DNA from: a virus
Virus record (IMG/VR): IMGVR_UViG_3300027754_000047
Coordinates: 32,001 to 96,000 of that record
DNA: 64,000 nucleotides
Direction: 5' to 3' (one strand)
Below are positions 1 through 21,379 of this stretch, piece after piece. The position numbers and the translations under genes were made by a program. Position 1 is the stretch's first letter, and the number at the start of each line of letters is the position of its first letter. The notes beneath the pieces are model-generated. The model had not been told where the DNA came from. It searched no databases and saw nothing but the letters and a program-made list of their open reading frames with translations.

Positions 1-3000
1 AACCACCTAGTTCCTCGTCGCCCCAAATCATATATGCTACTTTGAGGTTCTTACCCATAGCTAGGGCACCATTAGCGTCAGTATAGTTAGACTTAGCTAA
101 TAACTGACCAGGCTTAACCTGATCTCCTAGTTTAACTCCAGCAGTATTGTGTATGTAGGTGTTGTGTACTAGTAGACCGCAATCTACTGCAAACACTTGG
201 CTGCTGGCGACTTCGAAGTCATAGACATAGGCGGCAGGTTCAGCCTTAGTAATACTTACTACTGTATCCCACATAACGTCAGAGTCTGCCCAAGGCTTAA
301 GCACTCCGGATTTAATGCGGTGCCGTTGTATGTAGCTTCCAGCAGTAGCAGTCTTGTAAACCGAATGAGGGGTTGTTGCCCCAGTGCCGGCATATGCCAA
401 GACCCTACTAGCCTGAGTAACAGGGATCCCGTCGAACGTAGCAGCCCTAAAACTAAGGGAGGTTAAACTATTTAGCTTTTCGTTTCGGTCCTGGTAGCAG
501 AACCAGGCTGCTAGTCTATTAATGTGGCTAGAGATTACTCTCAGGCCATAACTAGGATTCCAAGCTGCATTTTGGTGGAGCTTAGTCTTTGGCAGTGTGC
601 AGAATATTCCTAGAGAGGCCAAAATATCTACCAGTCTATCTCTCATTAACAAACTAGCAGTCCAAGCTTGTAGCTGTACGGCTCCATTAGTATCTGAGTG
701 TAAGCAACCATCTCCAGACATGTAGCCTTGGATTAGGCCCTTACGAAACTCTACTGAGCGGAGCATAGTTTGCTCAGAGGGAGCCTTAGCGCCACTACCG
801 TGTCCAAACTCTTGCCGCAGCCAAGTAGCGGTTTGCTTACAGGTAAAAGAGGCTTTACCTGTACTAACAGCATTGACGTGAACTTTAAACCCAAGTGTAG
901 TCAAAAGGATATTAAGCTCTGCTTGCCGAGCTGCTGGTTGAGCGGCCAGTACTACTAAGTTTGGCTGACTTGCAGGTATGTGGCCCTCTGCTAAGTATAA
1001 TCCTGCCAATAAGCCCCAAGCATGAGTATCGTGATCCATGGTGCTGCAGGCGCCTAAGGTCATTCCTACTACAGGCAGTCGAGTTACGCCTACCTCACAG
1101 TCAGCTGGATATATGGGCACTAACTCTCCGGAGTCTCCTAGCGTAACTAAGGAGTGATCCTCAGTAGTAACCACTTGACGGCCAGATAGTGTAGTAGTCA
1201 GCACCAGGCGCTTAGTGTTAGGGATCTTAGCAAACCCTGTGATAGGCTCCCAAGCTGCCGCCTTAGTGTCCAGATTAATGGATCTTATTAGATCCCCTGA
1301 CTCTTGCTGATAGTCTTGGGCGGCTACTTGCTGAATTACTCCAGTTGCTCGTTTGATCCAAACTTTGGTAGCTCCGGCAACACACTTACGGTTAAAAGGA
1401 AAGTTGTTGTACAATTCGTACCGCTTCTTATCCTTGCCGTGCTTAACCTCAATGTAGTCTGCTGTTACATCGGTAACCAAACCTGCACCTAAAGCCGCAT
1501 CTGCTCTTACAGCACCTAAATAGGCTGATACTCCATCTTCGAAAGATTTACCTTCAGCATCGTTGGGATCCAGAGCTTGCACTAATGGTGCTTCTGCTTG
1601 CTGTAAAGGTAACGCTTGAGTGAAGTACTTTGAACCCATTAATAAGCGGCCACCCTTAATACCGGAAATACCAGGTACTAGGTTGGAGTTTAAATTAAAC
1701 ATGTTGGCATAGCTTGGTACCTCGTACTGTACAGCCTCAGGCTCTACGTAAGAGATCTTACCATTAACCATAGCTCGTACTGGGTCGCCGGTTCGTAAAG
1801 CCCTAGCAAGCTCGCCTGGAAAAGCTACAACAGCATCGGTAACAGTTCTAGCAGGTATTTGTTCAATCTTACCTGTTTGGATATTCTTCATCTTAGAGTA
1901 GATCTGGCCGTCAGAACCCTTTAAAGCTCCAATGGTTAATCTAAGATCTACACCTACTTGAGAAGATTCTGGAGTGCGTACTGGATCAATAAAGCCTAAG
2001 TGACTTGGTTGAACGGAGCGGGTATCTACAGGAATACCGTGGGCAGCAGAACCAATACCACCTTCGCCGGTGCGAATGACTCTAAGGTTCTGATCCAGAA
2101 TTTCCATTGGATTAACTTCTTCAATGGGCGCACCTAAACCCGAACCCATTAACACTCCACTAAGTACCGGAGTAAACACGCCGTTTCTAAATGCTTGTAA
2201 ATTGCCTTTATTGGTAGCCTTAAAAAGGGCACCACGTAAAGCACCTCCAGCATCTTTAACTATTCGCTCTGCAAAGAAATCCTCAGGGCCATAGAAACGT
2301 TGATAAGTTAAGGCATCGCGATCATCTACATCTTCGCTGCCCTTTTGAGCATTCAAAACCTTTTGACTAGCTCTTAGTAAGGTGCTGCCGGTAACTCTAG
2401 TTAAGTCTTCTTCGTTTAACTGAATGTGATCATTGCTTGCCTCAAAGTTAAACATAGGCTCAGTTGATTTAACTGGATCCATTAAACCGTTTAAATCGTC
2501 AAAGCCTGCTACCTTTACTCCGACAGCTAATCTAAAGCCACCTGTAGGCTTAGGATCTAATAATAAACTGCGGCGAAACTGCTCTAGTTCCGGACAATCA
2601 ATATCGATGCACCATTCTCCGTTATTAGGAGGTAAGACCTGGCGAACAATATAAGTGAAGCGCCGGCCATTACCGCAAGTAGCTTCAAACTTAGACTTAA
2701 AAAGCTTCTTTAGCTTTTTAATTTCTTCAGAAGTAATTACCACTAAACGGCCTTTGTCTTCTACTGGCGAGATACCTGGAGCATTATCTCCGTCTCTTAA
2801 AGCGTAGTAGACTCCGGTAACCATACCTGCAGGTACGGTGATATAACCTTCGGATTCTAATTTAAGGGTACCCCTCATAGGCACCGCTGCAGTCTTAACG
2901 CGAGCTCCTAAAGTTCTAGCTACTACTTCTTTATTAAGCTCAGTGTTATATAGGGCTGTACGAATACCTTCATACAGGTCAGGCTCACTTATGCCACTAG

Positions 3001-3691
3001 ATGGATTACTAGTAAGCCGCTCATATATACGAGCAGCATCATAAGGAGATGATGCTCTATTGTTAGCAAAAATCTCTTTGCCCCAGCTACGCTCAAGTAC
3101 CTCGTCTGGTACTCCGTAAGCCTTAAGCATAGGATATAGTGGCGCAACTGATTGACCAATTTCGGTAACAAACTTACCGGTATCTGGCATGAAGGCAACT
3201 CTAAAGCCTCGACCCTTACCCGGTAAGGTATTAAAGTGAGCTTCGTATTCACCCGACTTACGCTTACGTACATAAGCGCCGGGCAACAACCTAGCTTGAT
3301 TGGCTACAGTGTATTCGCTGCCTGCGTTTATAAAAGTGCCTCTGTTGGTTAAGTAAGGCACTCGAGCTAAAGTTAATGATCTATCTGTCTTATCTAGTAC
3401 AGCTCCGGTGGCTATATCTCGCATAACCAGCTTACCCTTTAACGGGTAATACAAACTTTGATTCTGCATCAAGGCTTGCTGTTGCTCTTTTAAACTGTAA
3501 TCTTCCGACTTACCATAACGCAAGTCAGTCAACTCCACTCTGTAGCGGGTATTTTGTAAAGGAAACTTAGCTGCTACTGCAGTAAAAACATTATCAAAGA
3601 TGTTTTTACGTGTAGCTGTGTAGTCGCTAAAGCCTCTAAGAGTTGGAGCTTGTGGTTGGATTAGGGCGTTTAAATCGTCCTCAGTAGCCAT
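1..3691 (-). CDS. rpoB: Phage-encoded DNA-directed RNA polymerase beta subunit (RpoB-like), intein-containing, 3' end outside window
   Basis: Manual translation from ATG at 3691 (not in ORF track; no stop in the segments translated). Motifs match bacterial RpoB: VPYLTNRGTFINAGSEYTVANQARLLPG, DDRDALTYQRF, RVIRTGEGG..TRSVQPSHLGFIDPVRTPESSQVG, GRLLMGSKYFTQALPLQQAEAPLV, GALAMGKNLKVAYMIW. Confidence 0.93.
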   Translation of the reverse strand, partial: MATEDDLNALIQPQAPTLRGFSDYTATRKNIFDNVFTAVAAKFPLQNTRYRVELTDLRYGKSEDYSLKEQQQALMQNQSLYYPLKGKLVMRDIATGAVLDKTDRSLTLARVPYLTNRGTFINAGSEYTVANQARLLPGAYVRKRKSGEYEAHFNTLPGKGRGFRVAFMPDTGKFVTEIGQSVAPLYPMLKAYGVPDEVLERSWGKEIFANNRASSPYDAARIYERLTSNPSSGISEPDLYEGIRTALYNTELNKEVVARTLGARVKTAAVPMRGTLKLESEGYITVPAGMVTGVYYALRDGDNAPGISPVEDKGRLVVITSEEIKKLKKLFKSKFEATCGNGRRFTYIVRQVLPPNNGEWCIDIDCPELEQFRRSLLLDPKPTGGFRLAVGVKVAGFDDLNGLMDPVKSTEPMFNFEASNDHIQLNEEDLTRVTGSTLLRASQKVLNAQKGSEDVDDRDALTYQRFYGPEDFFAERIVKDAGGALRGALFKATNKGNLQAFRNGVFTPVLSGVLMGSGLGAPIEEVNPMEILDQNLRVIRTGEGGIGSAAHGIPVDTRSVQPSHLGFIDPVRTPESSQVGVDLRLTIGALKGSDGQIYSKMKNIQTGKIEQIPARTVTDAVVAFPGELARALRTGDPVRAMVNGKISYVEPEAVQYEVPSYANMFNLNSNLVPGISGIKGGRLLMGSKYFTQALPLQQAEAPLVQALDPNDAEGKSFEDGVSAYLGAVRADAALGAGLVTDVTADYIEVKHGKDKKRYELYNNFPFNRKCVAGATKVWIKRATGVIQQVAAQDYQQESGDLIRSINLDTKAAAWEPITGFAKIPNTKRLVLTTTLSGRQVVTTEDHSLVTLGDSGELVPIYPADCEVGVTRLPVVGMTLGACSTMDHDTHAWGLLAGLYLAEGHIPASQPNLVVLAAQPAARQAELNILLTTLGFKVHVNAVSTGKASFTCKQTATWLRQEFGHGSGAKAPSEQTMLRSVEFRKGLIQGYMSGDGCLHSDTNGAVQLQAWTASLLMRDRLVDILASLGIFCTLPKTKLHQNAAWNPSYGLRVISSHINRLAAWFCYQDRNEKLNSLTSLSFRAATFDGIPVTQASRVLAYAGTGATTPHSVYKTATAGSYIQRHRIKSGVLKPWADSDVMWDTVVSITKAEPAAYVYDFEVASSQVFAVDCGLLVHNTYIHNTAGVKLGDQVKPGQLLAKSNYTDANGALAMGKNLKVAYMIWGDEELGG
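161..1384 (-). mobile_element. Intein with LAGLIDADG homing endonuclease (408 aa) in RNAP beta
   Basis: In-frame 1224 nt insert. Starts CVAGATKVWI, has block B-like VVTTEDHSL and LAGLIDADG blocks LAGLYLAEG and LIQGYMSGDG, ends YVYDFEV..VFAVDCGLLVHN followed by Thr. Exteins FPFNRK|TYIHN rejoin into the RpoB RSNQNTCINQ-like segment. Confidence 0.93.
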
Positions 3692-12863: not shown

Positions 12864-13541
12864 CTACGGAACGTCCGTAGGGTTACAAATTTGTTGTTTC
12901 TTTCGCGGGGCGCGAATACGGCGCACGCAACCCTTACGCCATCTAGCAGCAGTTGCCTTGCCGTCAAGGTTAACCCAGCTGTAGCTATTATCTTGCGCTT
13001 GCACTGCTTTACCTACTTCCCGCAGGGCTTCGTTGCTAAGCATGCAAATGTATCCTTTGGACCCGTCGATTCTTACTGCAACTTGTTTTTGCATCAGGTC
13101 CTCAATGTACAAAGCCTCTAACACCCAGCGCTGGTCTGGGTAAAGGTGAGCTTGATCTAACAGCTCTTTCAATTCCTCTTTATGAGGAACCTTTTTGGCT
13201 TGAGGGTCCCAAACGCATTTTGTTTTCATTTCGCTCAGCACCTTAACTGCATCAAAAGACAAAAACTTAGGCCTAGTTCGGTAATGAGTTCCTTGCCTAC
13301 CGTAAGTTTTTCGTATTAGGTCCTTCACGCAAAAGATGCTTTTGCGGGGAGCGAAGCTTAAATCTTTACCCACCCCCATTAGTTGCATGATGGCGTCATG
13401 GGCTGCTGATTCCGCATCCACTAAGGGGTCGTCTACTCGGCCTACTCTTTTAAGGTACTTCCGGCAAAGAAAGCAGCTTATGCGAATAGCCTTTTTGATA
13501 TTAGCCTCGGAATAATCTGGGGCTTCTATTACTGCTTCCAT
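12864..13541 (-). CDS. Sigma70-family-like transcription factor (divergent)
   Basis: Region 2-like DAESAAHDAIMQL..VKDLIRK and region 4 HTH-like LYPDQRWVLEALYIEDLMQKQVAVRIDGSKGYICMLSNEAL. Confidence 0.65.
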   Translation of the reverse strand: MEAVIEAPDYSEANIKKAIRISCFLCRKYLKRVGRVDDPLVDAESAAHDAIMQLMGVGKDLSFAPRKSIFCVKDLIRKTYGRQGTHYRTRPKFLSFDAVKVLSEMKTKCVWDPQAKKVPHKEELKELLDQAHLYPDQRWVLEALYIEDLMQKQVAVRIDGSKGYICMLSNEALREVGKAVQAQDNSYSWVNLDGKATAARWRKGCVRRIRAPRKKQQICNPTDVP

Positions 13542-13856: not shown

Positions 13857-13893
13857 TTGGGGGAAAAGATGCAGTTGCCTTTTTCAAGGTGAA

Positions 13894-13967
13894 TGGACCG
13901 GGTGGGATTCGAACCCACGCCTTATCGATTATGAGTCGACGGCTCTAGACCACTGAGCTACCAGTCC
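13894..13967 (-). tRNA. tRNA with CAT anticodon (Ile2 or elongator Met; not initiator), no encoded CCA
   Basis: GGACTGG TA GCTC AGTGGTCTA GAGC C GTCGA CTCATAA TCGAT AAGGC GTGGG TTCGAAT CCCAC CCGGTCC A cloverleaf; paired G1-C72 and no GGG/CCC anticodon stem. Confidence 0.93.
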
Positions 13968-13976
13968 AAGGTAAGG

Positions 13977-14130
13977 CTTTAACTAAGCTGCTGTTCATGG
14001 AATTCCAGGATTCTTTGGACTTTTAAATCCATAAGGCGTAAATCCCGGTCTTGTCGTAGGTTTTCTCTACGCTCTAGGGCAGCTTAGTTAAAGGGGTCAG
14101 GCTGAGGAGCGCTGTACTCAACTCAGCCTA
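13977..14130 (-). ncRNA. Candidate structured RNA upstream of the tRNA
   Basis: Perfect 15-bp closing stem 13977-13991/14079-14093 with internal hairpins, plus an aggctgag..ctcagcct hairpin; no ORF >=60 aa; promoter motif at ~14159-14188. Confidence 0.5.
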
Positions 14131-14154
14131 ATTCAGTACGATTGTTAGTCGTAT

Positions 14155-14190
14155 ATCATTATAACCCGTTTATGCTAAATTTTTAGCTTT
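14155..14190 (-). promoter_or_regulatory. Promoter CTAAA-N18-TATAAT
   Basis: Minus strand gctaaaaatttagcataaacgggttataatga. Confidence 0.6.
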
Positions 14191-14192
14191 AA

Positions 14193-14414
14193 TTAGTCAG
14201 ATAAATCTTCATCTTCTATTAGCAATTCCAAATCTAATTCACTATTTTTATTTTGTAAATCAGGGAAACTAATGTTGGTACTCGTTTGGCTAGGCTTATT
14301 TGCTAAGTTATTGGAGTAATCAATCTGAGCTTGGGTGTAGTCTGATTGTTTAACGTATGAGGTTGACAGTATTGCCTTGTACGAAATTAGTGTTTCTTTT
14401 TTACGACGACCCAT
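14193..14414 (-). CDS. Hypothetical protein, basic N-terminus and acidic C-terminus
   Basis: 73 aa ORF, AGGTG upstream, promoter motif at 14461-14492. Confidence 0.55.
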   Translation of the reverse strand: MGRRKKETLISYKAILSTSYVKQSDYTQAQIDYSNNLANKPSQTSTNISFPDLQNKNSELDLELLIEDEDLSD

Positions 14415-14460
14415 TTTGCACCTGTTAGCTAAATGAAGAGCTCTAATGAGTTCTTTCTAA

Positions 14461-14492
14461 GTCATTATAACTTATTTTTACCGAATGTTTAG
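14461..14492 (-). promoter_or_regulatory. Promoter CTAAA-N18-TATAAT
   Basis: Minus strand ctaaacattcggtaaaaataagttataatgac. Confidence 0.55.
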
Positions 14493-14496
14493 TGGC

Positions 14497-15156
14497 TTAA
14501 AGTTGCATAGTTTCGACAAAAGGATTGCCATCAATGACTACTCCACAAGCTATAATAGGCTTTTTAAGAAAAGCTGCACCGTATTGCATAGCCCAATGGT
14601 TGCGATCCACTCCGCAACCAATGTTCATACCCCATACTTTAGCTGTTGGCCCTGCTTGATACCAGACTCCACAAGCTGAGTGATAGTGCCCTAATACCGT
14701 AGATTGCATTCGCAACTTGGCTGCATTGAATGCGGGTTGTTGGCCTCCGGCTCCTTCGCCGTGGTAGTAGTAGACTCCGTCGATTTCAACGTTATCTACC
14801 CATTTCCAACTATGAGTGTCGTATAAGGAGTTGAACTCCTTTAAGTAAAGCCTAGGAATTCCTAGTTTAGCGTTTAATCGAAGTACTCTTAGATCATGAT
14901 TACCTACAGTTATGCTTGCTGTAGGGAATGCTTCGTATAGTTGTTTAACTTGCTTACAAGCCAAGTCGTATTCTAATGCTGCTCCAGGATTCTCTGGGTG
15001 CTTATCGTGAAAAGATATGCAATGATGGTCAACAACGTCTCCAATATGTACTACCTTATCTATACGCCAACGTTTAGCAACTGCCTTTAAAAAGGGAATA
15101 TATTTGCGATGCATGGCTGGGGCGTGGGTGTCCCCGATTACTAATACTCTGCTCAT
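14497..15156 (-). CDS. Calcineurin-like metallophosphoesterase
   Basis: GDTH, GDVVD, GNHD, HG and GHYH motifs. Confidence 0.9.
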   Translation of the reverse strand: MSRVLVIGDTHAPAMHRKYIPFLKAVAKRWRIDKVVHIGDVVDHHCISFHDKHPENPGAALEYDLACKQVKQLYEAFPTASITVGNHDLRVLRLNAKLGIPRLYLKEFNSLYDTHSWKWVDNVEIDGVYYYHGEGAGGQQPAFNAAKLRMQSTVLGHYHSACGVWYQAGPTAKVWGMNIGCGVDRNHWAMQYGAAFLKKPIIACGVVIDGNPFVETMQL

Positions 15157-15207
15157 TTAGGCTCCAAAGTAAGTGGATACTGTCAACTTATTGTTAGCTA
15201 AGGGCGC

Positions 15208-15236
15208 AGAGTAAGCAGGTAAGGTACCGGTGTCAA
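15208..15236 (-). promoter_or_regulatory. Sigma70-type promoter TTGACA-N17-TACTCT
   Basis: Minus strand ttgaca ccggtaccttacctgct tactct upstream of the phosphoesterase gene. Confidence 0.55.
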
Positions 15237-15249
15237 GTTTAGGCTATTG

Positions 15250-15286
15250 ATAGCTAAAAGAATGTGTAGGGTGGAACCCCTACACA
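15250..15286 (-). terminator. Intrinsic terminator with TTTTAGCTAT tail
   Basis: tgtgtaggg-tggaac-ccctacaca hairpin; atagctaaaa at 15250. Confidence 0.8.
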
Positions 15287-15342
15287 CTCCCTTTGATTGA
15301 ACCTGTAAACCCGTTAGCAAACAGGTTCAAGTCCAAGCCAGG

Positions 15343-15717
15343 TTATCGCATTAACATAATGCGATCATTAATGATTTTGATCTTGCGCTTGTTAACAAGC
15401 CTTCGTAGGCGTTGGCCGATTTGCTGGCGGCTGAGACCTGCCTCAACTGCCGCCAGGTATATTTTTTGTTTCAGTACTACTCCTTCGGGGTCGCTGAGCT
15501 CACGCACTATCTTTAGCACTCCTGCCTCCAGGGGTTCTCCTTCCTTTGCCTTTTTTGGAGGCTTTGGAGGTGAGAACAAAGACTGCTTGGGCCCATCCAA
15601 TGTGGGGCTAACTTTGATGTCTAGGCTCCAACCGGAGCCGACGGCCGCAGTGTGTAGGGCTTCGGCTAATTGTACAATCTCTTTCAGTCTGGCAAACGGA
15701 CCTTTTATATCTTTCAT
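15343..15717 (-). CDS. Hypothetical protein, possible C-terminal winged helix
   Basis: ATG 15717 avoids overlap with the upstream kinase; GLSRQQIGQRLRRLVNKRKIKI is HTH-like. Confidence 0.5.
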   Translation of the reverse strand: MKDIKGPFARLKEIVQLAEALHTAAVGSGWSLDIKVSPTLDGPKQSLFSPPKPPKKAKEGEPLEAGVLKIVRELSDPEGVVLKQKIYLAAVEAGLSRQQIGQRLRRLVNKRKIKIINDRIMLMR

Positions 15718-15823
15718 AACAACGGGTTTCCTAAAAGCCCTCGGTAGACGCGTACCTTGGGTAAAATGACAACCGCCCTTACACACTACAAGTATGCAAG
15801 GGCGGGGCGTCGAATGTTTGTTT

Positions 15824-16231
15824 TTAACCCACAAAGCGTGGGTCGTGGTGTTCCCAACGGCCAGCCATCTGCTGGACCTTCTCCGCAGGGCAACCGTGGG
15901 TGTTTGACCAGCTGTTTTCACAGTGTACAACGAATACACTGTAGCCATACTTAGCGGCCAAACTAAGGTACGCCTCGTAGTCTCGCCTCACTACTGAGGT
16001 GTTAGCTACGGCCAAGCGGGGCCAATCAGCCCTCATTGCAGTAGTCACTTGCTCTTCGCACCACCGATGAGCTAGACTAAGCTTGGTGTAGTCGAATAGG
16101 TACTCTCCTGTTTCGTTCAGGAAATACTTATCCGCCTCAAAGGCGGGGCACGACAAATCCAGTGAAGCAGCCAAGCTGCTTTTACCTGAACCGGGCAACC
16201 CTCTGATAACGTACAAGATCTTTTGATTCAT
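15824..16231 (-). CDS. P-loop nucleotide kinase-like protein (AAA_33/PNK-type)
   Basis: LYVIRGLPGSGKSSLA, EADKYF, VANTS, HGCP motifs; AAGGAGG SD. Confidence 0.85.
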   Translation of the reverse strand: MNQKILYVIRGLPGSGKSSLAASLDLSCPAFEADKYFLNETGEYLFDYTKLSLAHRWCEEQVTTAMRADWPRLAVANTSVVRRDYEAYLSLAAKYGYSVFVVHCENSWSNTHGCPAEKVQQMAGRWEHHDPRFVG

Positions 16232-16300
16232 TTCTTCCTCCTTTTAGCTGTGCTTTAGGCTTAACGCAAACCTAATTTTTAATGGTAACACAGTTCACAT

Positions 16301-16332
16301 GTTATATTCACACAATAGGTGGGCTATTTTAA
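16301..16332 (-). promoter_or_regulatory. Phage cassette promoter variant TTAAA-N18-GAATAT
   Basis: Minus strand ttaaaatagcccacctattgtgtgaatataac directly after a terminator tail. Confidence 0.55.
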
Positions 16333-16364
16333 TAGCTAAATAAGGACCCCGGTTAGGGGTCCTT
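16331..16364 (-). terminator. Intrinsic terminator with TTTAGCTATT tail
   Basis: aaggacccc-ggtta-ggggtcctt hairpin; aatagctaaa at 16331. Confidence 0.8.
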
Positions 16365-16385
16365 GGGTCTCAAAAGCCCCTGTGT

Positions 16386-16832
16386 TTAGCTACCAGACTG
16401 CACGAAGATCGTTTCTCCTGCAGCTCCCGCTGCCTTTCCTGCAACACCCGCCGTCTTGTCCACCGCCTCCTGAGGAGGAGCTTTCATTCCCTCATCGGCG
16501 GGCCGTCGGTCCCTATTGGCCTGGGACCGGGCCTTGTCGTCCTCTTCAGAATTCTTGGCCTTCTTCCTGTCCATCACTTCGTTCGCCTTGGCTTCCACCA
16601 TTGGGGTGGAAGCAACCAGCATGCCGAGCGCGGCGAAGGCCAACGTCGTGATCGTGGCCATGCCGTTGAAGCCGGCCACCACCATCGAGCGGGTTTCATC
16701 CATGGACCAAGTCCACGGAAATAACCAGCTTTCCCCGCTAGCAGGGACCAAAGCGTCTCCGCCGCCAATGGCAACGAAGAAGAGAATCGACACAACCGCG
16801 TAGGGCATAAAGCCCCAGAAGAACTTCTTCAT
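16386..16832 (-). CDS. Hypothetical membrane protein
   Basis: Two hydrophobic segments, charged C-terminus, GAAAGGA SD, GC-rich codon usage. Confidence 0.7.
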   Translation of the reverse strand: MKKFFWGFMPYAVVSILFFVAIGGGDALVPASGESWLFPWTWSMDETRSMVVAGFNGMATITTLAFAALGMLVASTPMVEAKANEVMDRKKAKNSEEDDKARSQANRDRRPADEGMKAPPQEAVDKTAGVAGKAAGAAGETIFVQSGS

Positions 16833-16916
16833 TCGAAGTTCCTTTCCGGGGTATTACCCCTAGTAGTCGCTTACTTGTAGTCAGGATTACGCACCCAACA
16901 GCAAGTATCGCTACTT

Positions 16917-16954
16917 ATATATATATACCGCAAAAGGGGGTCTATTTTAGTCCC
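16917..16954 (-). promoter_or_regulatory. Phage cassette promoter CTAAAATAGACCCC..GGTATATA
   Basis: Minus strand gggactaaaatagacccccttttgcggtatatatata, near-identical to the copies at 18205 and 18383. Confidence 0.8.
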
Positions 16955-16972
16955 TCAATACTGTCAACCTTT

Positions 16973-17025
16973 AATAGCTAAAAAGAACGATCCTTATGGC
17001 CCCGAAGGGTGGCAAGGATCGTTCT
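16973..17025 (-). terminator. Intrinsic terminator with TTTTTAGCTATT tail
   Basis: agaacgatcctt...aaggatcgttct stem with a cUUCGg-capped inner hairpin on the minus strand. Confidence 0.85.
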
Positions 17026-17477
17026 ATAGCTGTTGCGGTGTTTCTGCAGAAACCTTGACAACAGCTAGTTATTGTTCCGGAACCTCCGGGCATGGCTTAC
17101 TAACACCTCTTCGTCCTGCCGCAACCTACTGATCTTGTAGGTCGCTTTAGTTATCCCCTCGCAAGGGGGGCGGTTTACGAGGGACAACCCAACTCTCGTT
17201 GGATTTCTAGGTAGGCTCTCGTCCCCTAGACATACCCACTCCAGTTTTATTAGAGTAGGCTGTTAATAGGTCCCTCACAGGTATGGGACCAACCTTGACT
17301 AGCCTCCGTTGCCACGGGGCGCTGCTCTTTTGCCGAGCCAGCATTAAAGTCGAACCTAAATGGAGTGTACAGCTCCAGTGCTACCGGGGGTATTTATTCC
17401 GGTAAGCTGCTAACCCACCAGTTAGGTAGGTCATACGGTAGGTACCGTAGGGCCCTATATATTGCTATATAGAGCTT
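16980..17477 (-). ncRNA. Candidate ~500-nt structured non-coding RNA
   Basis: No ORF >=60 aa; bounded by its own promoter (17482-17512) and terminator; about a dozen hairpins; GCAA and GAGA tetraloops and G-U pairs favour the minus strand. Confidence 0.65.
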
Positions 17478-17481
17478 ATGT

Positions 17482-17512
17482 ATTATACCCCAAAAAGGAG
17501 GTTATTTTAGCC
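17482..17512 (-). promoter_or_regulatory. Phage cassette promoter CTAAA-N18-TATAAT
   Basis: Minus strand ggctaaaataacctcctttttggggtataat. Confidence 0.78.
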
Positions 17513-17520
17513 TTACCTTG

Positions 17521-17562
17521 ATACCTAAAAAAAGCCCCCCAACTCCTTGCGGAGTGGGGGGC
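17521..17562 (-). terminator. Intrinsic terminator (GCAA loop) with variant tail TTTTAGGTAT
   Basis: Minus strand gccccccactcc-gcaa-ggagttggggggc followed by a T7 run. Confidence 0.85.
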
Positions 17563-17583
17563 ATCGTCCATGGTGGGGGGCCT

Positions 17584-18111
17584 TTAGCGGCTCCACCACC
17601 ATGCCAACTGATCAGACCATGAAGGATTGGTCAACCGCTGCACTCGCTGCTCGCTCGCAATCTGCTGTGCGATTGCAGCAGAGGTGGCCGATTTGTTTCC
17701 CATCGACGCCCTAACATGGATCGCCGCCGTCCACGCCGGGATGCGGACGTAGTCAATTCCAGCAGCCTGCGCCACCCACGCATCGTGGGTGGTTTGGACC
17801 GTCATGATTGCAGCGACGCCCAAGTCGGGCGTCACCTTCGTCGCCGCTTCTACAGCGGCGCAAGTGGAGGCTCCTGCCTCCACAATTCCTTCTGGGGTGG
17901 TGGTGCACTCCACCTTAAGATCCAGCTGCTTCTGCAGCTGCTGCTCTGCCTCACTCCAAGCTGCCTTGGTCTCCTGGATGGAGACCAGCATGGCTGCGGC
18001 CTTTGCCGCAACCTCCTCCGCCGTCGGCGCCTTAGCCGAAGGTGGAGTCGCTTGGCAAACGCCTCCGATGAAGAAGGCGATTGTACAAACGAGTGTTAGA
18101 AGAGTCTTCAT
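17584..18111 (-). CDS. Hypothetical secreted protein (signal peptide, Ala-rich)
   Basis: MKTLLTLVCTIAFFIGGVCQA signal; AAGGAGG SD; own promoter and terminator. Confidence 0.75.
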   Translation of the reverse strand: MKTLLTLVCTIAFFIGGVCQATPPSAKAPTAEEVAAKAAAMLVSIQETKAAWSEAEQQLQKQLDLKVECTTTPEGIVEAGASTCAAVEAATKVTPDLGVAAIMTVQTTHDAWVAQAAGIDYVRIPAWTAAIHVRASMGNKSATSAAIAQQIASEQRVQRLTNPSWSDQLAWWWSR

Positions 18112-18204
18112 GAGACTCCTCCTTTCCGGGGTATTACCCCTTTAAGCTGTTGTTGACAGTATGAGCGGTTACGCAACCCTCATTATCAGCTACAACAGCC
18201 TTAG

Positions 18205-18239
18205 GTATATATACCTCAAAAAGGGGTCTATTTTAGCCC
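18205..18239 (-). promoter_or_regulatory. Phage cassette promoter (left arm of 35-bp inverted repeat)
   Basis: Exact reverse complement of 18383-18417. Confidence 0.8.
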
Positions 18240-18367
18240 TAAAAAGGCCCTTTTAGGCCCTTTTAGGCCCTTTTAGGCCCTTTTAGGCCCTTTTAGGGCT
18301 ATTGACAGTTTTAGGCCCTTTTAGCCCTAAAAAGCCTCTTTTAGGCCCTTTTAGGCTCTTTTAGGCC
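18240..18367. repeat. Tandem array of the 10-mer TTTTAGGCCC with variants
   Basis: Four perfect consecutive copies at 18251-18290 plus about six further exact or degenerate copies to 18367. Confidence 0.92.
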
Positions 18368-18382
18368 TGTTGACAGTATTAG

Positions 18383-18417
18383 GGGCTAAAATAGACCCCT
18401 TTTTGAGGTATATATAC
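18383..18417 (+). promoter_or_regulatory. Phage cassette promoter (right arm of 35-bp inverted repeat)
   Basis: gggctaaaatagacccctttttgaggtatatatac. Confidence 0.8.
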
Positions 18418-18740
18418 ATATGGCCGTTATAGCTATATATAAGAGCTTATCCATGTCGGAATGGCCTTTATAGCTATAACGAGCCAATATGTAGTAGTAC
18501 GTATTGGCAGTTGATCCCCCTCACCCCTTGCGGGGTGGTGCAGGTCGCTAACCCTAAGGGGGAGGCTATCCGGACAGGTACCTCCTACGGTGGGGCCTTA
18601 ACCCGACCTCCCCCCCGAAGTCTGGGGTCACGGTTGCAATGCGAAACCTCCACATGAAGGTGTGGAACACGGGAATCGCGCTTAAGCCTATTGGAAATAG
18701 GGTGAAGCAAAAACCCCCCTGAAATGGGGGCTTTTTTTTT
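18418..18740 (+). ncRNA. Candidate ~320-nt structured non-coding RNA
   Basis: No ORF >=60 aa; between a promoter and a T9 terminator; long 5' stem cgttatagctata/tatagctataacg; cUACGg loop; ccacat-gaag-gtgtgg and cacccc-ttgc-ggggtg hairpins. Confidence 0.6.
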
Positions 18741-18747
18741 AGCTATT
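18714..18747 (+). terminator. Intrinsic terminator with TTTTAGCTATT tail
   Basis: cccccc-tgaaat-ggggg-c-T9-agctatt. Confidence 0.8.
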
Positions 18748-18765
18748 AAAGGTTGACAGTATTAG

Positions 18766-18800
18766 GGGCTAAAATAAGGCTCCTTTTGAGGTATATATAT
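18766..18800 (+). promoter_or_regulatory. Phage cassette promoter CTAAA-N18-TATATA
   Basis: gggctaaaataaggctccttttgaggtatatatat. Confidence 0.8.
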
Positions 18801-18880
18801 ATGTAGAGGGTTTAGACCTAATTGATGGGTGTTCCATTAATTAGAAACAAACCCTACTACTACTCTTGAAAGGAGTAGCC

Positions 18881-19084
18881 ATGTCAATAGTTTGGCAGCC
18901 GTCCTTACGGCATCCCAAATTCCAGGTCGTAAAAGACCTGGTCTTTGGAATCGTGGGAACAATGGACGGATGGGAAACCTCCTCCATTACTACCACGGAG
19001 CAGGCAGAGGCCCTGCTCCAGATCCCGGGGTGTCCCTTTGAGCAGGAGCTCAAGGAGATCATCAAGAAAGGAGTGAGCCCGTAA
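18881..19084 (+). CDS. Hypothetical protein (67 aa) in its own cassette
   Basis: GAAAGGAG SD before ATG 18881; followed by a terminator. Confidence 0.75.
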   Translation: MSIVWQPSLRHPKFQVVKDLVFGIVGTMDGWETSSITTTEQAEALLQIPGCPFEQELKEIIKKGVSP

Positions 19085-19102
19085 GGGCTTTTTTTAGCTA
19101 TT
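19076..19102 (+). terminator. Intrinsic terminator (GTAA loop) with TTTTAGCTATT tail
   Basis: agccc-gtaa-gggct-T6-agctatt. Confidence 0.8.
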
Positions 19103-19112
19103 AAAGTACCTA

Positions 19113-20984
19113 TTACTGTGGAGGCATTCCGGTTGCTGGCGGAGCCGGTTGCCTAAGTTGGTCTTTACCTTGGTTACCTGCTTGCTGAGTAATCTGATCC
19201 AACATACCCTTGATGACAGCATGTAGGTGAGGGTCTTGGCTCTTAATACCTTCCAAGATCTGCCTACGTTGCGGACTGCCCAATGGAGCCGTAGCCATGA
19301 TTTCGTTAACTCGGCCTTGAGCATCCCCAAAGAAGCTTTCCAAGTCCTTACCTGCTCCTGCAGCCGTAGGCCCAGCTACGCCGTTAATAGGCATTGCTGG
19401 AGCGCCCATACCGCCACCGATATTTGGCCCACCTGGCATACCGCCTGCTCCTGCTTCCTGCCCTGGGGCTCCAATGAAGGCTCCTGGAGGCGCAGCCATA
19501 ATCTGCTCGTTTTCTTCTGCTTTGCGCATGCGTTCCATGTAAGACTTTTCTTCTCGCATCTTGAACTCTTGCTCGCTTTGGCGCTTCTTGAAGGTGTCCT
19601 TCCAATCCAAGCCGAAGAGGGTAAGTACGTCTTGTTCCGATGCGACGCCTTGCATCATCATCTGCAACATCATCATGCGGCGTTCAATGTCATCTGCATG
19701 AGTAGGTCGAGTCAAGTTAACTTCACAAGGCAACCAGTTTAGAATAGCGCTAATTCTGTCAACAATCCAAGTTAAGGCTCGTTGTAAGCCGCCTAGAAAG
19801 ATAGTTTCCCCTGCTTCAAATAAACGAGCAGCAAAAGGGGCTGTTTGAACACTAAGGGTCTTACGGTACAGTTCTACTGGAACGCCTAAGCCGTTTAAGA
19901 AGTCAGCTTGGGCTGCATCTAACAGTTGTGGAGTAACAAAGTTCTTACCTTCACCGCCTAATAGTTGGTAATTAACTGGAGTAGGTAACCATTGCCAACC
20001 AGTGGGATCTTTACGAGCTCTATCAATAGAGCGCATAACCTGAGAGCCGAAGGAGCCAATGTTTACCGACTGCATAAAGTCGCCATTGGCTCCAATAGAT
20101 GCCGGAGTAACCAAGCGAATAGGCAACATATGATCTAAGGCAATAGCTTCGTTATTGCGCTTAAGTATTTGGGCTAGGTATGCATCCCTAAAGCCTGCAA
20201 TTACCGGAGGCAAACCCCATTCACCCATTTTGATGTCGCTAAGGTTGCCAATGGAGATATGGTGCAACATGCCGTCAGCAAACTGAAACAAGCTACTAGC
20301 TCGCACAGCTTGAACAATACCCCATGGAGCTTCTTGTAAGTACTTCTTATTGCCGGCCTGAATCAAGGTTCGGTCTTGACTCGGTACTTCGTAGTAATAC
20401 TCAGGAATACCTCCGTATGGCTGGTTTACGATTCTAATCTGCCGAATTGGCCAACGCTTAATAGTGATCTTATTCTCTTCTAGTGTAGGTCGATCATCTG
20501 GATTAAGCGTTTGAACCTGCTTACCGCAACTAGCGCACTTGTAACTAAACCCAGTGCTTAGACTAAACTTATATTCTACGTTAGCAATAGGCCGAGCTGC
20601 TCCACACTCAGCACAAGTTAAAAAGCGCTTAAATGGAGCTAATACCGAGATACAAGAATTACCGTAGACCTTGATATCCCGGCCAATCAAAAACAACAGA
20701 GTTTTAATCTGTTGTTTTTCTAAGAGGAACTTCTTGTACTCCGCCGCCTTATCTTCATCCTTAGTAATCACGTTAAGGTCGGTGCCGGTAAAGTAAGAAA
20801 CTACGTATTCAATAGCTTGGGCAAAAGTTCTATTGCTGTAATACATAGCCTCCGCCATCTCAAATGATTCGTTTATGTTCGTAGGCATATGCAGGGATGC
20901 ATAGTCTAAGAACGGACTAGGAATACTATCTGAGTGGCTTAAAGCTCGGCGCTTGCTAAAGTCTGGCGTTGAAAAATCTGGCAT
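19113..20984 (-). CDS. Probable portal protein with zinc-ribbon insertion
   Basis: 623 aa; portal-like segments (IGRDIKVYGNSCISV, GEWGLPPV, FLNGLGVPVEL); CAEC..CASC insert; Gln/Gly/Pro-rich tail. Resemblance only. Confidence 0.55.
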   Translation of the reverse strand: MPDFSTPDFSKRRALSHSDSIPSPFLDYASLHMPTNINESFEMAEAMYYSNRTFAQAIEYVVSYFTGTDLNVITKDEDKAAEYKKFLLEKQQIKTLLFLIGRDIKVYGNSCISVLAPFKRFLTCAECGAARPIANVEYKFSLSTGFSYKCASCGKQVQTLNPDDRPTLEENKITIKRWPIRQIRIVNQPYGGIPEYYYEVPSQDRTLIQAGNKKYLQEAPWGIVQAVRASSLFQFADGMLHHISIGNLSDIKMGEWGLPPVIAGFRDAYLAQILKRNNEAIALDHMLPIRLVTPASIGANGDFMQSVNIGSFGSQVMRSIDRARKDPTGWQWLPTPVNYQLLGGEGKNFVTPQLLDAAQADFLNGLGVPVELYRKTLSVQTAPFAARLFEAGETIFLGGLQRALTWIVDRISAILNWLPCEVNLTRPTHADDIERRMMMLQMMMQGVASEQDVLTLFGLDWKDTFKKRQSEQEFKMREEKSYMERMRKAEENEQIMAAPPGAFIGAPGQEAGAGGMPGGPNIGGGMGAPAMPINGVAGPTAAGAGKDLESFFGDAQGRVNEIMATAPLGSPQRRQILEGIKSQDPHLHAVIKGMLDQITQQAGNQGKDQLRQPAPPATGMPPQ

Positions 20985-21379
20985 TAGTTGTTTCCATCTT
21001 CCGGCAGATCAATTACTTTACCTATTAAACTTCTAGCAAATTCATTACCGCCTAAAACTGCCCAATCGTAGGCAGTTAGTTCGTCGTCATCTACAGCTTC
21101 AGGATCTAAAGTTGGGTTAGCAATAACGTGAAAAGCAATCAAGTAGCTTACAATGTTAGGCTTGCTGTAATAAGCCGCCATCATAAGTATATTTCGATTT
21201 CCCTTATCTTTTAGCTCTAACAGCCTAGGAAACCTATCTAATAGCCTGTTCAAGAGTACCAGGTCTTCTCCTAGTAAGGCTCCAATAAACAAAGGTACCG
21301 CTTCTTTAATGTTACTTACTATCTTCATTAACTTGCTCCTTAGATGGCGCCTTGCATTTACATCGACACTTAATACCAC
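20984..21379 (-). CDS. Ankyrin-repeat protein (start possibly MKIVS)
   Basis: DKGNRNILMMAAYYSKPNIVSYLI and DDDELTAYDWAVLGGNEFARSLI fit the ankyrin consensus. Confidence 0.75.
   Translation of the reverse strand: MVLSVDVNARRHLRSKLMKIVSNIKEAVPLFIGALLGEDLVLLNRLLDRFPRLLELKDKGNRNILMMAAYYSKPNIVSYLIAFHVIANPTLDPEAVDDDELTAYDWAVLGGNEFARSLIGKVIDLPEDGNN

What the first reader, a model, noticed from the sequence alone, without database searches (positions are those of the whole stretch)
16980..17477. ~500-nt ORF-free multi-hairpin RNA expressed from its own cassette
Seen: a consensus promoter and terminator enclose a near-continuous run of helices on the minus strand: gctctatata-GCAA-tatatagggc (17452-17475), tacggt/accgta (17434-17449), ggtccc/gggacc (17269-17290), aatccaac-GAGA-gttgggtt (17186-17205), gcgacctac/gtaggttgc (17121-17145) and tagctgttg/caacagcta (17027-17067). 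ACGAGAG occurs twice. I do not recognise tmRNA, RNase P or intron cores. Inference: an undescribed large phage ncRNA, perhaps an anti-defence decoy, protein sponge or scaffold.
Basis: partly seen in the sequence, partly recalled or inferred. Interest (0 to 1): 0.85.

Follow-up and report, generated by a model that had tools for sequence, protein, structure and literature searches.

The report
Abundant orphan structured phage RNA
An uncultivated lake phage carries a stand-alone gene for a folded RNA of about 360 bases that makes no protein, shows up strongly in lake RNA samples and matches no known RNA family, so it is real but its job is still unknown.

Summary
A phage-specific promoter and a hairpin-plus-U terminator enclose about 490 ORF-poor, helix-dense bases on the minus strand. 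The record is a 129-kb uncultivated freshwater phage. Contigs of three metatranscriptome runs cover only 17093-17455, at contig depths 11-65 times those of the two flanking genes in two runs. One contig carries adapter-like letters abutting 17093. The stable species therefore seems to be about 363 nt, without the 5' hairpin and the 108-nt trailer, and it ends in ...GCCA. A DNA strain variant keeps the cassette, shows two compensatory base-pair changes, and has indels that break two of the small ORFs.

No Rfam family, tmRNA or tRNA call fits. No homologue was found in 80 related phage loci or 5 relatives' records, including 2 complete genomes. Those relatives carry other, unrelated ORF-free RNAs in the same variable slot after the portal gene.

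The fold z-score is not specific, because the neighbouring coding cassette scores lower still. My reading is an accessory, trans-acting stable ncRNA; the decoy or sponge mechanism is inferred, not shown. The scan noted this same stretch in an overlapping window, not on other DNA.

The parts
17527..17560 (-). Terminator (G+C hairpin and U run) of the preceding cassette, the 175-aa gene at 17584-18111
   Evidence: Sequence. Listed by the terminator scan at 17554-17537.
17482..17512 (-). Promoter: phage-specific CTAAAATA..CC..TTTT element (17492-17510) followed by TATAAT (17482-17487). The start near 17475/17476 is inferred.
   Evidence: The motif occurs 5 times in the window against 0.03 expected. 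The same type heads cassettes in relatives. The sigma-70 scan did not call it.
17452..17475 (-). 5' hairpin with a GCAA loop at the predicted transcript start. It lies outside the RNA contigs.
   Evidence: Inverted repeat I8. The RNA contigs of X3 and X19 both end at 17455 (table 8).
17093..17455 (-). Accumulating core RNA of about 363 nt, with multi-helix domains. The 3' end reads ...GUAAGCCA.
   Evidence: Contigs: X3 17093-17455 at depth 304.8, X4 17094-17446 at depth 46.9, X19 17151-17455 at depth about 4.5. Adapter-like loose letters abut 17093 in X3. Fold z -4.87.
17121..17145 (-). 9-bp helix with a 7-nt loop. The pair 17140:17126 changes from C-G to A-U in the X6 strain variant.
   Evidence: Inverted repeat I9. 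Substitutions 17126 C>A and 17140 G>T lie in one contig (table 3).
17186..17205 (-). Hairpin with a GAGA loop. The strain variant has 16 extra letters inside it.
   Evidence: Folds. Insertions behind 17189, 17194, 17196 and 17197 (table 4).
17026..17092 (-). 3' trailer with hairpins 17077-17089 and 17027-17067. It is absent from the RNA contigs. The inner pair 17050:17043 changes from U-A to C-G in the variant.
   Evidence: Inverted repeat I6. Substitutions 17043 T>C and 17050 A>G (table 3). Depth is 0 in X3 and X4 over 16909-17082, while the DNA run X6 covers it (table 2).
16980..17025 (-). Cassette terminator: perfect 12-bp arms around an 18-nt inner segment, then a run of U.
   Evidence: Inverted repeat I2 and sequence. 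The terminator scan did not list it, probably because the 18 nt between the arms exceed the scan's stated loop limit of 3-8 (my inference).

Best explanation
This is a self-contained transcription unit in the hypervariable cassette island that follows the portal gene of an uncultivated freshwater phage (129-kb record, estimated 73% complete). It is read from the phage's own promoter type. Its primary transcript of about 490 nt appears to be trimmed at both ends to a compact, multi-helix non-coding RNA of about 363 nt (17455-17093, minus strand) that accumulates far above the neighbouring mRNAs.

Shown: the cassette anatomy, the lack of a credible ORF, presence in RNA libraries on exactly this stretch, retention with compensatory changes in a strain variant, and the absence of any known family or homologue in relatives.

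Inferred: it acts in trans as a stable accessory RNA that binds and titrates a host or phage factor (a decoy or sponge) during host takeover or counter-defence, and it is not a core replication or assembly component. This inference rests on three points. The RNA sits among swappable accessory cassettes. It is replaced by unrelated ORF-free RNAs in relatives. It contains repeated look-alike hairpin arms.
For: - Promoter: the motif occurs 5 times against 0.03 expected and is shared with relatives' cassettes.
- RNA contigs: X3 17093-17455 at depth 304.8, against 15.1 for the 175-aa gene and 4.7-10.4 for the 148-aa gene. X4 17094-17446 at 46.9, against 4.4 and 2.8. In X19 only this stretch of 16300-18900 is present.
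- Not DNA carry-over: depth is 0 over 17518-17604 and 16909-17082 in X3 and X4, where the DNA run X6 has cover.
- Defined 3' end: adapter-like loose letters abut 17093 (table 7).
- Strain variant in X6: the cassette is kept while the upstream 175-aa gene is replaced by 487 other letters. Two compensatory pairs are seen (17140:17126 and 17050:17043). Its indels shift the frames of ORFs 17065-17187 and 16971-17093.
- Coding: 0 of 5 ORFs inside the unit are in the 15-billion protein collection. Real cassette genes carry AAAGGAG before ATG, and the 45-aa ORF does not.
- Known families: Rfam gives nothing at gathering score and only sub-threshold noise at E<=10. ARAGORN finds no tmRNA or tRNA.
- Strand: the core folds better on the minus strand (z -4.87) than on the plus strand (z -2.29).
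- Accessory setting: portal, variable slot and PNK-like gene are syntenic in relatives, and the slot holds other ORF-free RNAs.
- Internal repetition: CCUAC occurs 6 times against a mean of 1.13. There is also a 21-nt internal direct repeat at 76%.
Against: - No function was tested and no partner protein is evident. RVT_1, RtcB, TROVE and RNA_ligase are all absent from the record, which is 73% complete.
- No homologue beyond one strain variant, so there is no family-level covariation. Only 2 compensatory pairs come from a single contig, and 27 further substitutions of that run were not shown to me.
- The fold z-score is not specific: the coding neighbour scores -7.41.
- The tool itself warns that contig depth is a poor measure of expression and that contigs cannot show ends or strand.
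- The motif enrichment is marginal after multiple testing: some 5-mer reaches 6 copies in 67 of 1000 shuffles.
- Orphan distribution also fits a recently acquired or decaying cassette.
Confidence: 0.45

Rival explanations
1. A tRNA-like, CCA-ended decoy or substrate. The RNA is matured like a tRNA or tmRNA to a 3' ...CCA end. It engages tRNA-handling enzymes or tRNA-targeting host defence nucleases, working alongside the nearby RNA-healing genes.
For: The 3' end of the RNA contigs is ...GCCA, with an adapter-like junction at 17093. A GGUUCGAC stretch resembles a T-loop. A PNK-like ATPase, a metallophosphoesterase and tRNA-Met lie within 3.5 kb. At a 60% threshold ARAGORN draws a weak cloverleaf over 17414-17335.
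Against: ARAGORN finds no tRNA or tmRNA at default or 95% thresholds. The calls at 60-70% thresholds overlap one another and look like noise. Rfam tmRNA and tRNA models are silent at E<=10. No 7-bp acceptor pairing with the 3' end and no T-arm next to it are visible. CCA has a 1 in 64 chance of being there by accident, and the end sits one base past a predicted helix, as exonuclease trimming would leave it. No RNA ligase was found.
Confidence: 0.1
2. A polycistronic precursor. The string of hairpins is cut into several small RNAs, for example mimics of defence-associated RNA antitoxins or regulatory sRNAs, rather than acting as one large RNA.
For: The architecture is a string of hairpins. Look-alike hairpin arms recur. 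An earlier scan note on another phage reads a post-portal gap as an array of small RNA antitoxin mimics (e1-5824099; unchecked).
Against: Single contigs span the whole 363 nt in X3 and 353 nt in X4. There are no tandem repeats in the unit. No ToxI or other antitoxin family appears in Rfam at E<=10.
Confidence: 0.1
3. A functionless or decaying cassette: a former gene cassette or hitch-hiking insert that is still transcribed from a strong promoter. Its RNA is stable simply because it is G+C-rich and hairpin-dense.
For: Distribution is orphan: no hit in 80 related loci or in 5 relatives' records, including 2 complete genomes. Neighbouring coding cassettes fold as strongly or more so. Cassettes are visibly swapped between strains (table 5).
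Against: tblastx finds no protein-like similarity to any relative over 16985-17475. There is no Shine-Dalgarno/ATG remnant. Two compensatory changes preserve helices, and the indels fall inside one hairpin. Helices are capped by GNRA- and UNCG-type loops (loop classes recalled). The ends are discrete, and the contig depth is much higher than that of the true mRNAs beside it.
Confidence: 0.15
4. A cis-acting or local regulatory RNA for the cassette array. It could act as a transcriptional insulator, an antiterminator, or an operator mimic for the leader hairpin that precedes the two neighbouring genes.
For: It lies between two cassettes whose leaders share GGGGUAAUACCCCGGAAAGG (16841-16860 and 18122-18141). 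Its own hairpin at 17379-17399 contains AAUACCCC, an 8-mer in common with them.
Against: An 8-mer match of this kind is expected about 0.7 times by chance (my estimate). The unit has its own terminator, and the next gene has its own promoter. The strain variant keeps the RNA while the upstream gene is swapped.
Confidence: 0.08
5. An mRNA for a small protein: the 45-aa ORF 17344-17207, or a dual-function RNA.
For: That ORF starts with ATG, lies wholly inside the accumulating core, and has no indel listed in the variant.
Against: There is no Shine-Dalgarno before it, unlike the real cassette genes. The exact product is not in the 15-billion protein collection. The two other 40-aa ORFs are frame-shifted in the variant.
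Confidence: 0.05
6. A packaging or assembly RNA working with the portal, analogous to phi29 pRNA.
For: An ORF-free RNA slot follows the portal gene in the closer relatives, those with 65-81% portal identity.
Against: The slot RNAs are not homologous to this one. It is absent from 2 complete relatives. The 23 more distant (31-34% identity) portal relatives examined have no such slot. The Rfam pRNA model does not match. The slot is filled with accessory genes for membrane or secreted proteins.
Confidence: 0.04

Closest known systems
GOLLD and ROOL large ornate RNAs (Rfam families, often in phages or prophages near tRNA genes; 10.1101/2024.12.08.627333, seen only as a search listing and the start of its abstract)
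   Same: It is a large (>350 nt), multi-helix, ORF-free RNA. It is phage-borne, lies a few kb from a tRNA gene, comes from lake samples, and has no known function.
   Different: It matches neither family at gathering score or at E<=10. It is shorter, at about 363 nt (the greater lengths of GOLLD and ROOL are recalled, not taken from a call). No homologues are known, so no conserved core can be defined. Whether it forms multimers was not tested.
Phage 'moron' cassettes that express small RNAs from their own promoter and terminator (general concept; recalled, no call)
   Same: It is an autonomous promoter-to-terminator unit inserted among unrelated genes. It is accessory and is swapped between strains.
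   Different: It is far larger and more structured than typical moron sRNAs. No base-pairing target stands out: the blastn-short search against the phage's own genome gave only short exact matches with E >= 0.2.
The family of ORF-free RNAs of about 245 nt in the same slot of related phages (L013, L017, L022, L026, L034, L038, L040 and others; model R1)
   Same: Same genomic slot, upstream of a small membrane-protein cassette and downstream of the portal gene. Same promoter type, a 5' hairpin and a terminator tail.
   Different: No significant similarity was found. nhmmer with that family does not hit this genome. The covariance model R1 gives only noise on this stretch. Local alignments are within the shuffled range for all 6 slot RNAs compared.
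tmRNA and tRNA-like RNAs
   Same: It has a processed 3' end reading CCA, a UUCGA-containing stretch, and a length like that of tmRNA.
   Different: It has no acceptor stem, no T-arm next to the 3' end and no credible tag frame. ARAGORN and Rfam are negative.
RNA decoys used by phages against defence systems, such as pseudo-ToxI of phage PhiTE (PMC3475682, known to me only through an earlier scan note; paper not read)
   Same: It is a phage-encoded non-coding RNA in an accessory region, which plausibly titrates a host factor.
   Different: It has no tandem repeat units and no similarity to any antitoxin RNA family in Rfam. No host counterpart was found in the genomes searched.

Membership tests
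tmRNA | Detected by ARAGORN or by the Rfam tmRNA models (tRNA-like domain plus tag reading frame) | tested here: not met
   ARAGORN finds none at the default threshold or at 95%. The three calls at the 70% threshold overlap and disagree. No Rfam tmRNA hit at E<=10.
tmRNA | 3' terminal CCA | tested here: met
   The RNA contigs end at 17093/17094, which reads ...GCCA on the RNA strand. Adapter-like letters abut 17093.
tRNA | Cloverleaf with a 7-bp acceptor stem, T-arm and anticodon arm above the detection threshold | tested here: not met
   ARAGORN at the default threshold finds only tRNA-Met at 13893-13968. Cloverleaves appear only at the 60% threshold, and three of the five overlap one another.
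Any Rfam 15 family (including RNase P, group I/II introns, GOLLD, ROOL, HEARO, OLE, raiA, 6S, phage pRNA, ToxI, self-cleaving ribozymes) | Covariance-model score at or above the gathering threshold | tested here: not met
   The only match in the window is the tRNA. At E<=10 on 16800-17700 there are 7 hits, all well below gathering score (best 20 bits against 39), and none lies inside 17112-17455.
Slot RNA family of related phages (model R1) | Match to the covariance model or HMM built from L013, L040, L017 and L022 | tested here: not met
   With filters off on 14000-21000, the matches at E below 0.01 lie on the decamer repeat region and on a stretch outside the unit. Fragments inside 17093-17455 score 3.3 bits or less. 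nhmmer gives no hit in the genome.
Type III antitoxin-like RNA arrays (ToxI type) | Tandem repeats of a short unit of about 34-36 nt (unit length recalled) | tested here: not met
   Tandem Repeats Finder finds none in 16900-17600. The only array is the decamer array at 18245-18383.
Retron or DRT-type ncRNA | A reverse transcriptase gene nearby | tested here: not met
   RVT_1 is not found in the 129-kb record, which is 73% complete.
Y-RNA-like (YrlA) RNAs | A Ro (TROVE) or RtcB partner gene | tested here: not met
   TROVE and RtcB are not found in the record.
Stable structured ncRNA (generic) | Base pairs kept through compensatory change in homologues | tested here: inconclusive
   Two compensatory pairs were seen in one strain variant. 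There are no further homologues, and 27 substitutions of that run were not shown.

The most novel reading that the evidence does not exclude
This is the founding member of a new class of large phage RNAs. A structured RNA of about 363 nt is matured at both ends to a CCA-terminated species and becomes the phage's dominant transcript in natural lake infections. It serves as a tRNA-world decoy against host RNA-targeting defences. The slot behind the portal gene is then an 'RNA counter-defence island', in which related phages carry different, unrelated ncRNAs.
Probability: 0.1. Interest if true: 0.85.

Novelty: new variant of a known kind. Interest (0 to 1): 0.5.

Why it matters
Large structured RNAs of unknown function are rare, and most were found by conservation. 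This one has almost no relatives, yet environmental RNA data support its expression. If its contig depths reflect real abundance, the phage invests heavily in an RNA rather than a protein at a locus that turns over quickly between strains, which is the pattern expected of host-interaction or counter-defence genes. Related phages fill the same slot with other ORF-free RNAs. This suggests a wider, unexplored use of non-coding RNAs by this clade of freshwater phages (complete relatives are 175-183 kb).

Tried and rejected
**Known families**
- Rfam at gathering score and at E<=10, and ARAGORN at default and relaxed thresholds, gave nothing usable.

**Homologue hunt for the RNA**
- blastn against 50,697 phage records: no match.
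- Its 3'-terminal 20-mer in viral contigs: 0 hits.
- The 18-mer in metagenome contigs: 5 loci, all chance. Only L006 gave a blastn match (26 nt, 92%) and it has no wider similarity.
- The promoter 19-mer in viral contigs: 4 unrelated loci.
- The neighbouring 175-aa and 148-aa proteins and PolA as single queries in viral contigs: no relatives.
- blastn and nhmmer against 80 portal-anchored related loci: nothing.
- BLAST against 5 relatives' whole records: 0 of 5.
- BLAST against 5 MAGs holding distant portal relatives: only 17-19-nt matches with E of 0.17 or more.
- BLAST against 401 genomes of the order of G007 and 167 of the phylum of G009: 0 and 0. The host is unknown, so these two are weak negatives.
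- Earlier-findings look-ups by sequence and by relatives returned only this genome.

**Relation to the relatives' slot RNAs**
- Rejected after the covariance model R1, nhmmer and shuffled Smith-Waterman tests.

**Target and host searches**
- Complementarity of the RNA to the phage's own genome: only short exact matches with E >= 0.2.
- Host inference from portal relatives in GTDB genomes: 5 distant hits; four of the record titles name different taxa and one names none, so no host can be called.

**No cover in the RNA runs**
- No RNA contigs lay over the second ORF-free unit (18386-18745) or over the 3' trailer in X3 and X4.

**Literature**
- Two full-text searches were read as listings and abstract starts only; no paper was opened. 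Neither listing showed a paper on this RNA or this phage group. That is all my 'not described' rests on, besides Rfam 15. Supplementary files were not consulted.

**Tools unavailable**
I therefore could not fetch the contigs of the closest portal relatives (P0004 at 95%, P0005 at 82%, P0006 at 81%) or of P0003. These are the likeliest places to find RNA homologues.

Full report
**Where it lies.** The window is bases 32001-96000 of a 129,472-bp IMG/VR virus record, estimated 73% complete. The record encodes:
- an RNA polymerase beta-like protein with an intein;
- ribonucleotide reductase;
- a family A DNA polymerase fused to a UDG-like domain;
- helicase, primase and a UvsX-like recombinase;
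- two tRNAs.

Its DNA polymerase is at most 26% identical to any GenBank phage. The 623-aa protein at 19113-20984 is the portal: it is 26-28% identical to the annotated portal of Salmonella phage Arash.

**The observation.** On the minus strand, the parts run in this order:
- the terminator of the preceding gene (17560-17527);
- a CTAAAATA..CC..TTTT element (17510-17492);
- a perfect TATAAT (17487-17482);
- a GCAA-capped hairpin (17475-17452);
- about 360 nt of closely packed helices;
- a trailer with two hairpins;
- a terminator with perfect 12-bp arms followed by a U run (17025-16980).

The longest ORFs are 45, 40 and 40 aa.

The promoter is not a sigma-70 consensus, and the generic scan does not call it. 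Its upstream element recurs 5 times in the window against 0.03 expected. The same type heads cassettes in related phages.

The fold energy is exceptional against shuffles: z -6.65 for the whole unit and -4.87 for the core, with the opposite strand at -2.29. This measure is not specific here, however. The adjacent 175-aa gene looks like a genuine secreted or lipoprotein-like protein with a signal-peptide-like N-terminus, yet it gives z -7.41 and -5.2 to -8.0. The 148-aa gene gives -3.0, and seven core-gene segments give +1.2 to -3.0.

**Expression.** A run search with 16300-18900 listed 24 runs, 8 of them RNA libraries. I laid two lake metatranscriptomes (X3, X4), one from another study (X19) and one DNA run (X6).
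- X3: one contig covers 17093-17455 at depth 304.8. The contigs on the 175-aa gene and the 148-aa gene have depths of 15.1 and 4.7-10.4.
- X4: the contig is 17094-17446 at depth 46.9, against 4.4 and 2.8.
- X19: only 17151-17455 is present, at a depth of about 4.5.
- The promoter/terminator stretches 17518-17604 and 16909-17082 have no cover in X3 and X4, although the DNA run X6 covers them. The RNA libraries are therefore not simply carrying phage DNA.
- The X3 contig continues beyond 17093 into 23 letters that I recognise from memory as the tail of an Illumina adapter. Many fragments therefore ended exactly there.

On the RNA strand this end reads ...GUAAGCCA. Two runs from different studies (X3, X19) end at 17455, inside the 3' arm of the first hairpin.

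The tool warns that contigs cannot prove ends, strand or level. I therefore treat the 363-nt processed form as likely, not shown.

**Strain variant.** X6 holds a contig that matches 16959-17512 with 28 substitutions and 28 gap letters.
- Nine substitutions of that contig were listed for 16959-17140. Four of them form two compensatory pairs: 17140:17126 (C-G to A-U, in the helix 17121-17145) and 17050:17043 (U-A to C-G, in the trailer hairpin).
- One listed substitution falls in a hairpin loop, one between helices, two at the base of a helix, and one in a segment I take to be single-stranded.
- Sixteen inserted letters all fall within the hairpin 17186-17205.
- A 2-nt deletion at 17149 shifts the frame of ORF 17065-17187. 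A 1-nt deletion at 17056 shifts the frame of ORF 16971-17093.
- In the same variant the upstream 175-aa gene is replaced by 487 unrelated letters. The RNA cassette is thus retained while its neighbour is swapped.
- Twenty-seven further substitutions were not displayed, so this count is incomplete.

**Coding potential.** The real genes of the array have AAAGGAG 5-9 nt before ATG; the 45-aa ORF has none. None of the 5 ORFs inside the unit exists in the 15-billion protein collection, whereas both neighbouring proteins do. tblastx finds no protein-level similarity to any of 80 related loci over 16985-17475.

**What it is not.**
- Rfam 15 at gathering score finds only tRNA-Met in the window. At E<=10 on 16800-17700 the 7 hits are all well below threshold, and none lies in the core.
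- ARAGORN finds no tmRNA or tRNA at default or 95% thresholds. Only mutually inconsistent calls appear at 60-70%.
- There are no tandem repeats.
- The record has no reverse transcriptase, RtcB, Ro/TROVE or RNA ligase.

**Relatives.** The portal has 76 homologues in the protein database, ranging from 95% down to 25% identity. An alignment of 27 of them (A1) pulled 237 related stretches from IMG/VR, of which the best 80 were kept. Thirty-three of those have 65-81% identity.

Gene order is conserved: portal, a variable slot of 1-3 kb, a PNK-like ATPase, then a metallophosphoesterase. The RNA itself has no blastn or nhmmer match in any of the 80 loci. It has none in 5 whole relatives' records, two of them complete at 174.6 and 183.5 kb.

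The slot in relatives uses the same promoter type and also holds ORF-free units:
- a family of about 245 nt, found in 13 loci;
- a 468-nt RNA in L037 whose 3' part belongs to that family.

That family is not related to the target by any test I could run: nhmmer, covariance model R1 with filters off, or local alignment against shuffles for all 6 RNAs compared. The 23 more distant (31-34% identity) portal relatives examined have no such slot.

The target is therefore an orphan occupant of a clade-specific, fast-changing accessory island.

**Mechanism.** No experiment-like evidence bears on function. The accessory, swappable setting among small membrane or secreted-protein genes, the apparent abundance and stability, the replacement by unrelated RNAs in relatives, and internal repetition point the same way. 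The repetition consists of CCUAC 6 times against a mean of 1.13 (though some 5-mer reaches 6 in 67 of 1000 shuffles) and a 21-nt internal repeat at 76%. I favour a trans-acting RNA that binds and titrates a host or phage factor.

The CCA end and the nearby PNK-like, phosphoesterase and tRNA genes keep a tRNA-mimic decoy alive as a minority reading. A precursor of several small RNAs, a decaying cassette, a local regulator, a small-protein mRNA and a portal-associated assembly RNA are listed as rivals with their evidence.

**Novelty.** Phage-borne large ncRNAs and autonomous moron-type cassettes are known kinds. This RNA belongs to no described family and has no detectable relatives beyond strain level. 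My claim that it is undescribed rests on Rfam 15 and on two literature searches read at listing level. The scan had noted this same stretch in an overlapping window. It had also noted comparable ORF-free cassettes near portal genes in other phages, but not this RNA on other DNA.

**Limits.** The contigs most likely to hold homologues could therefore not be read.

Noticed in passing
window 18417-18745 (+), promoter at 18386-18416: This is a second ORF-free unit of about 330 nt on the other side of the decamer array, with fold z -4.8. Its 3' end resembles the slot RNA of relative L022: score 37 against a shuffled maximum of 23, partly due to the terminator. Model R1 does not match it. No RNA contigs covered it in the runs laid.
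   Followed up: partly
L013 12341-12576, L040 12331-12568, L017 4445-4680, L022 11952-12157, L034 12671-12842, L037 2076-2229: A family of ORF-free RNAs of about 245 nt lies after the portal gene in related phages. It matches no Rfam family in the 8 relatives scanned. Its core is a CCGG-stem hairpin with an AAUMCCA loop, followed by AAAUGGGUAAGC. The loop and the later motif change together between L013 (CCCA/UGGG) and L017 (CCUA/UAGG), which hints at a pseudoknot.
   Followed up: partly
L037 1762-2229: A 468-nt ORF-free cassette RNA. Its last 150 nt or so belong to the 245-nt family, and its first 300 nt or so match nothing else.
   Followed up: partly
window 18245-18383: About 12 copies of a decamer (AGGCCCTTTT) sit between two divergent copies of the cassette promoter. 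The transcription units on either side point away from it.
   Followed up: no
window 17584-18111 and 16386-16832 (-): The cassette genes are 61% G+C in a genome of about 45% G+C. They also fold far better than shuffles (z -7.4 and -3.0) although they appear to be coding. In the X6 strain the 175-aa gene is replaced by 487 unrelated letters.
   Followed up: partly
window 16841-16860 and 18122-18141 (-): The same 20-nt leader, GGGGUAAUACCCCGGAAAGG (a hairpin plus the Shine-Dalgarno sequence), precedes both neighbouring genes. The target RNA's hairpin at 17379-17399 shares an 8-mer with it, which may be chance.
   Followed up: no
window 14497-16231 (-), tRNA at 13893-13968: A PNK-like AAA_33 ATPase (15824-16231) overlaps a 201-aa ORF (15343-15948). 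A metallophosphoesterase (14497-15156) and tRNA-Met follow. Together they look like an RNA-healing module, but no RNA ligase was found in the record.
   Followed up: partly
L028 15835-15911; L034 16976-17437: A Pistol self-cleaving ribozyme (46.4 bits, gathering score 34.5) and a group I intron (55.9 bits, gathering score 50) lie a few kb downstream of the portal gene in two relatives.
   Followed up: no
window 2-3691 (-) and 46393-49236 (-): The RNA polymerase beta-like gene is interrupted by an intein with a LAGLIDADG domain. The family A DNA polymerase has an N-terminal UDG-superfamily domain.
   Followed up: no
window 12864-13541 (-): A 225-aa protein has a weak sigma-70 region 4 match (19.7 bits, below the 24.1 cut-off). 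It could be the factor that reads the CTAAA-type promoters. This link is untested.
   Followed up: no
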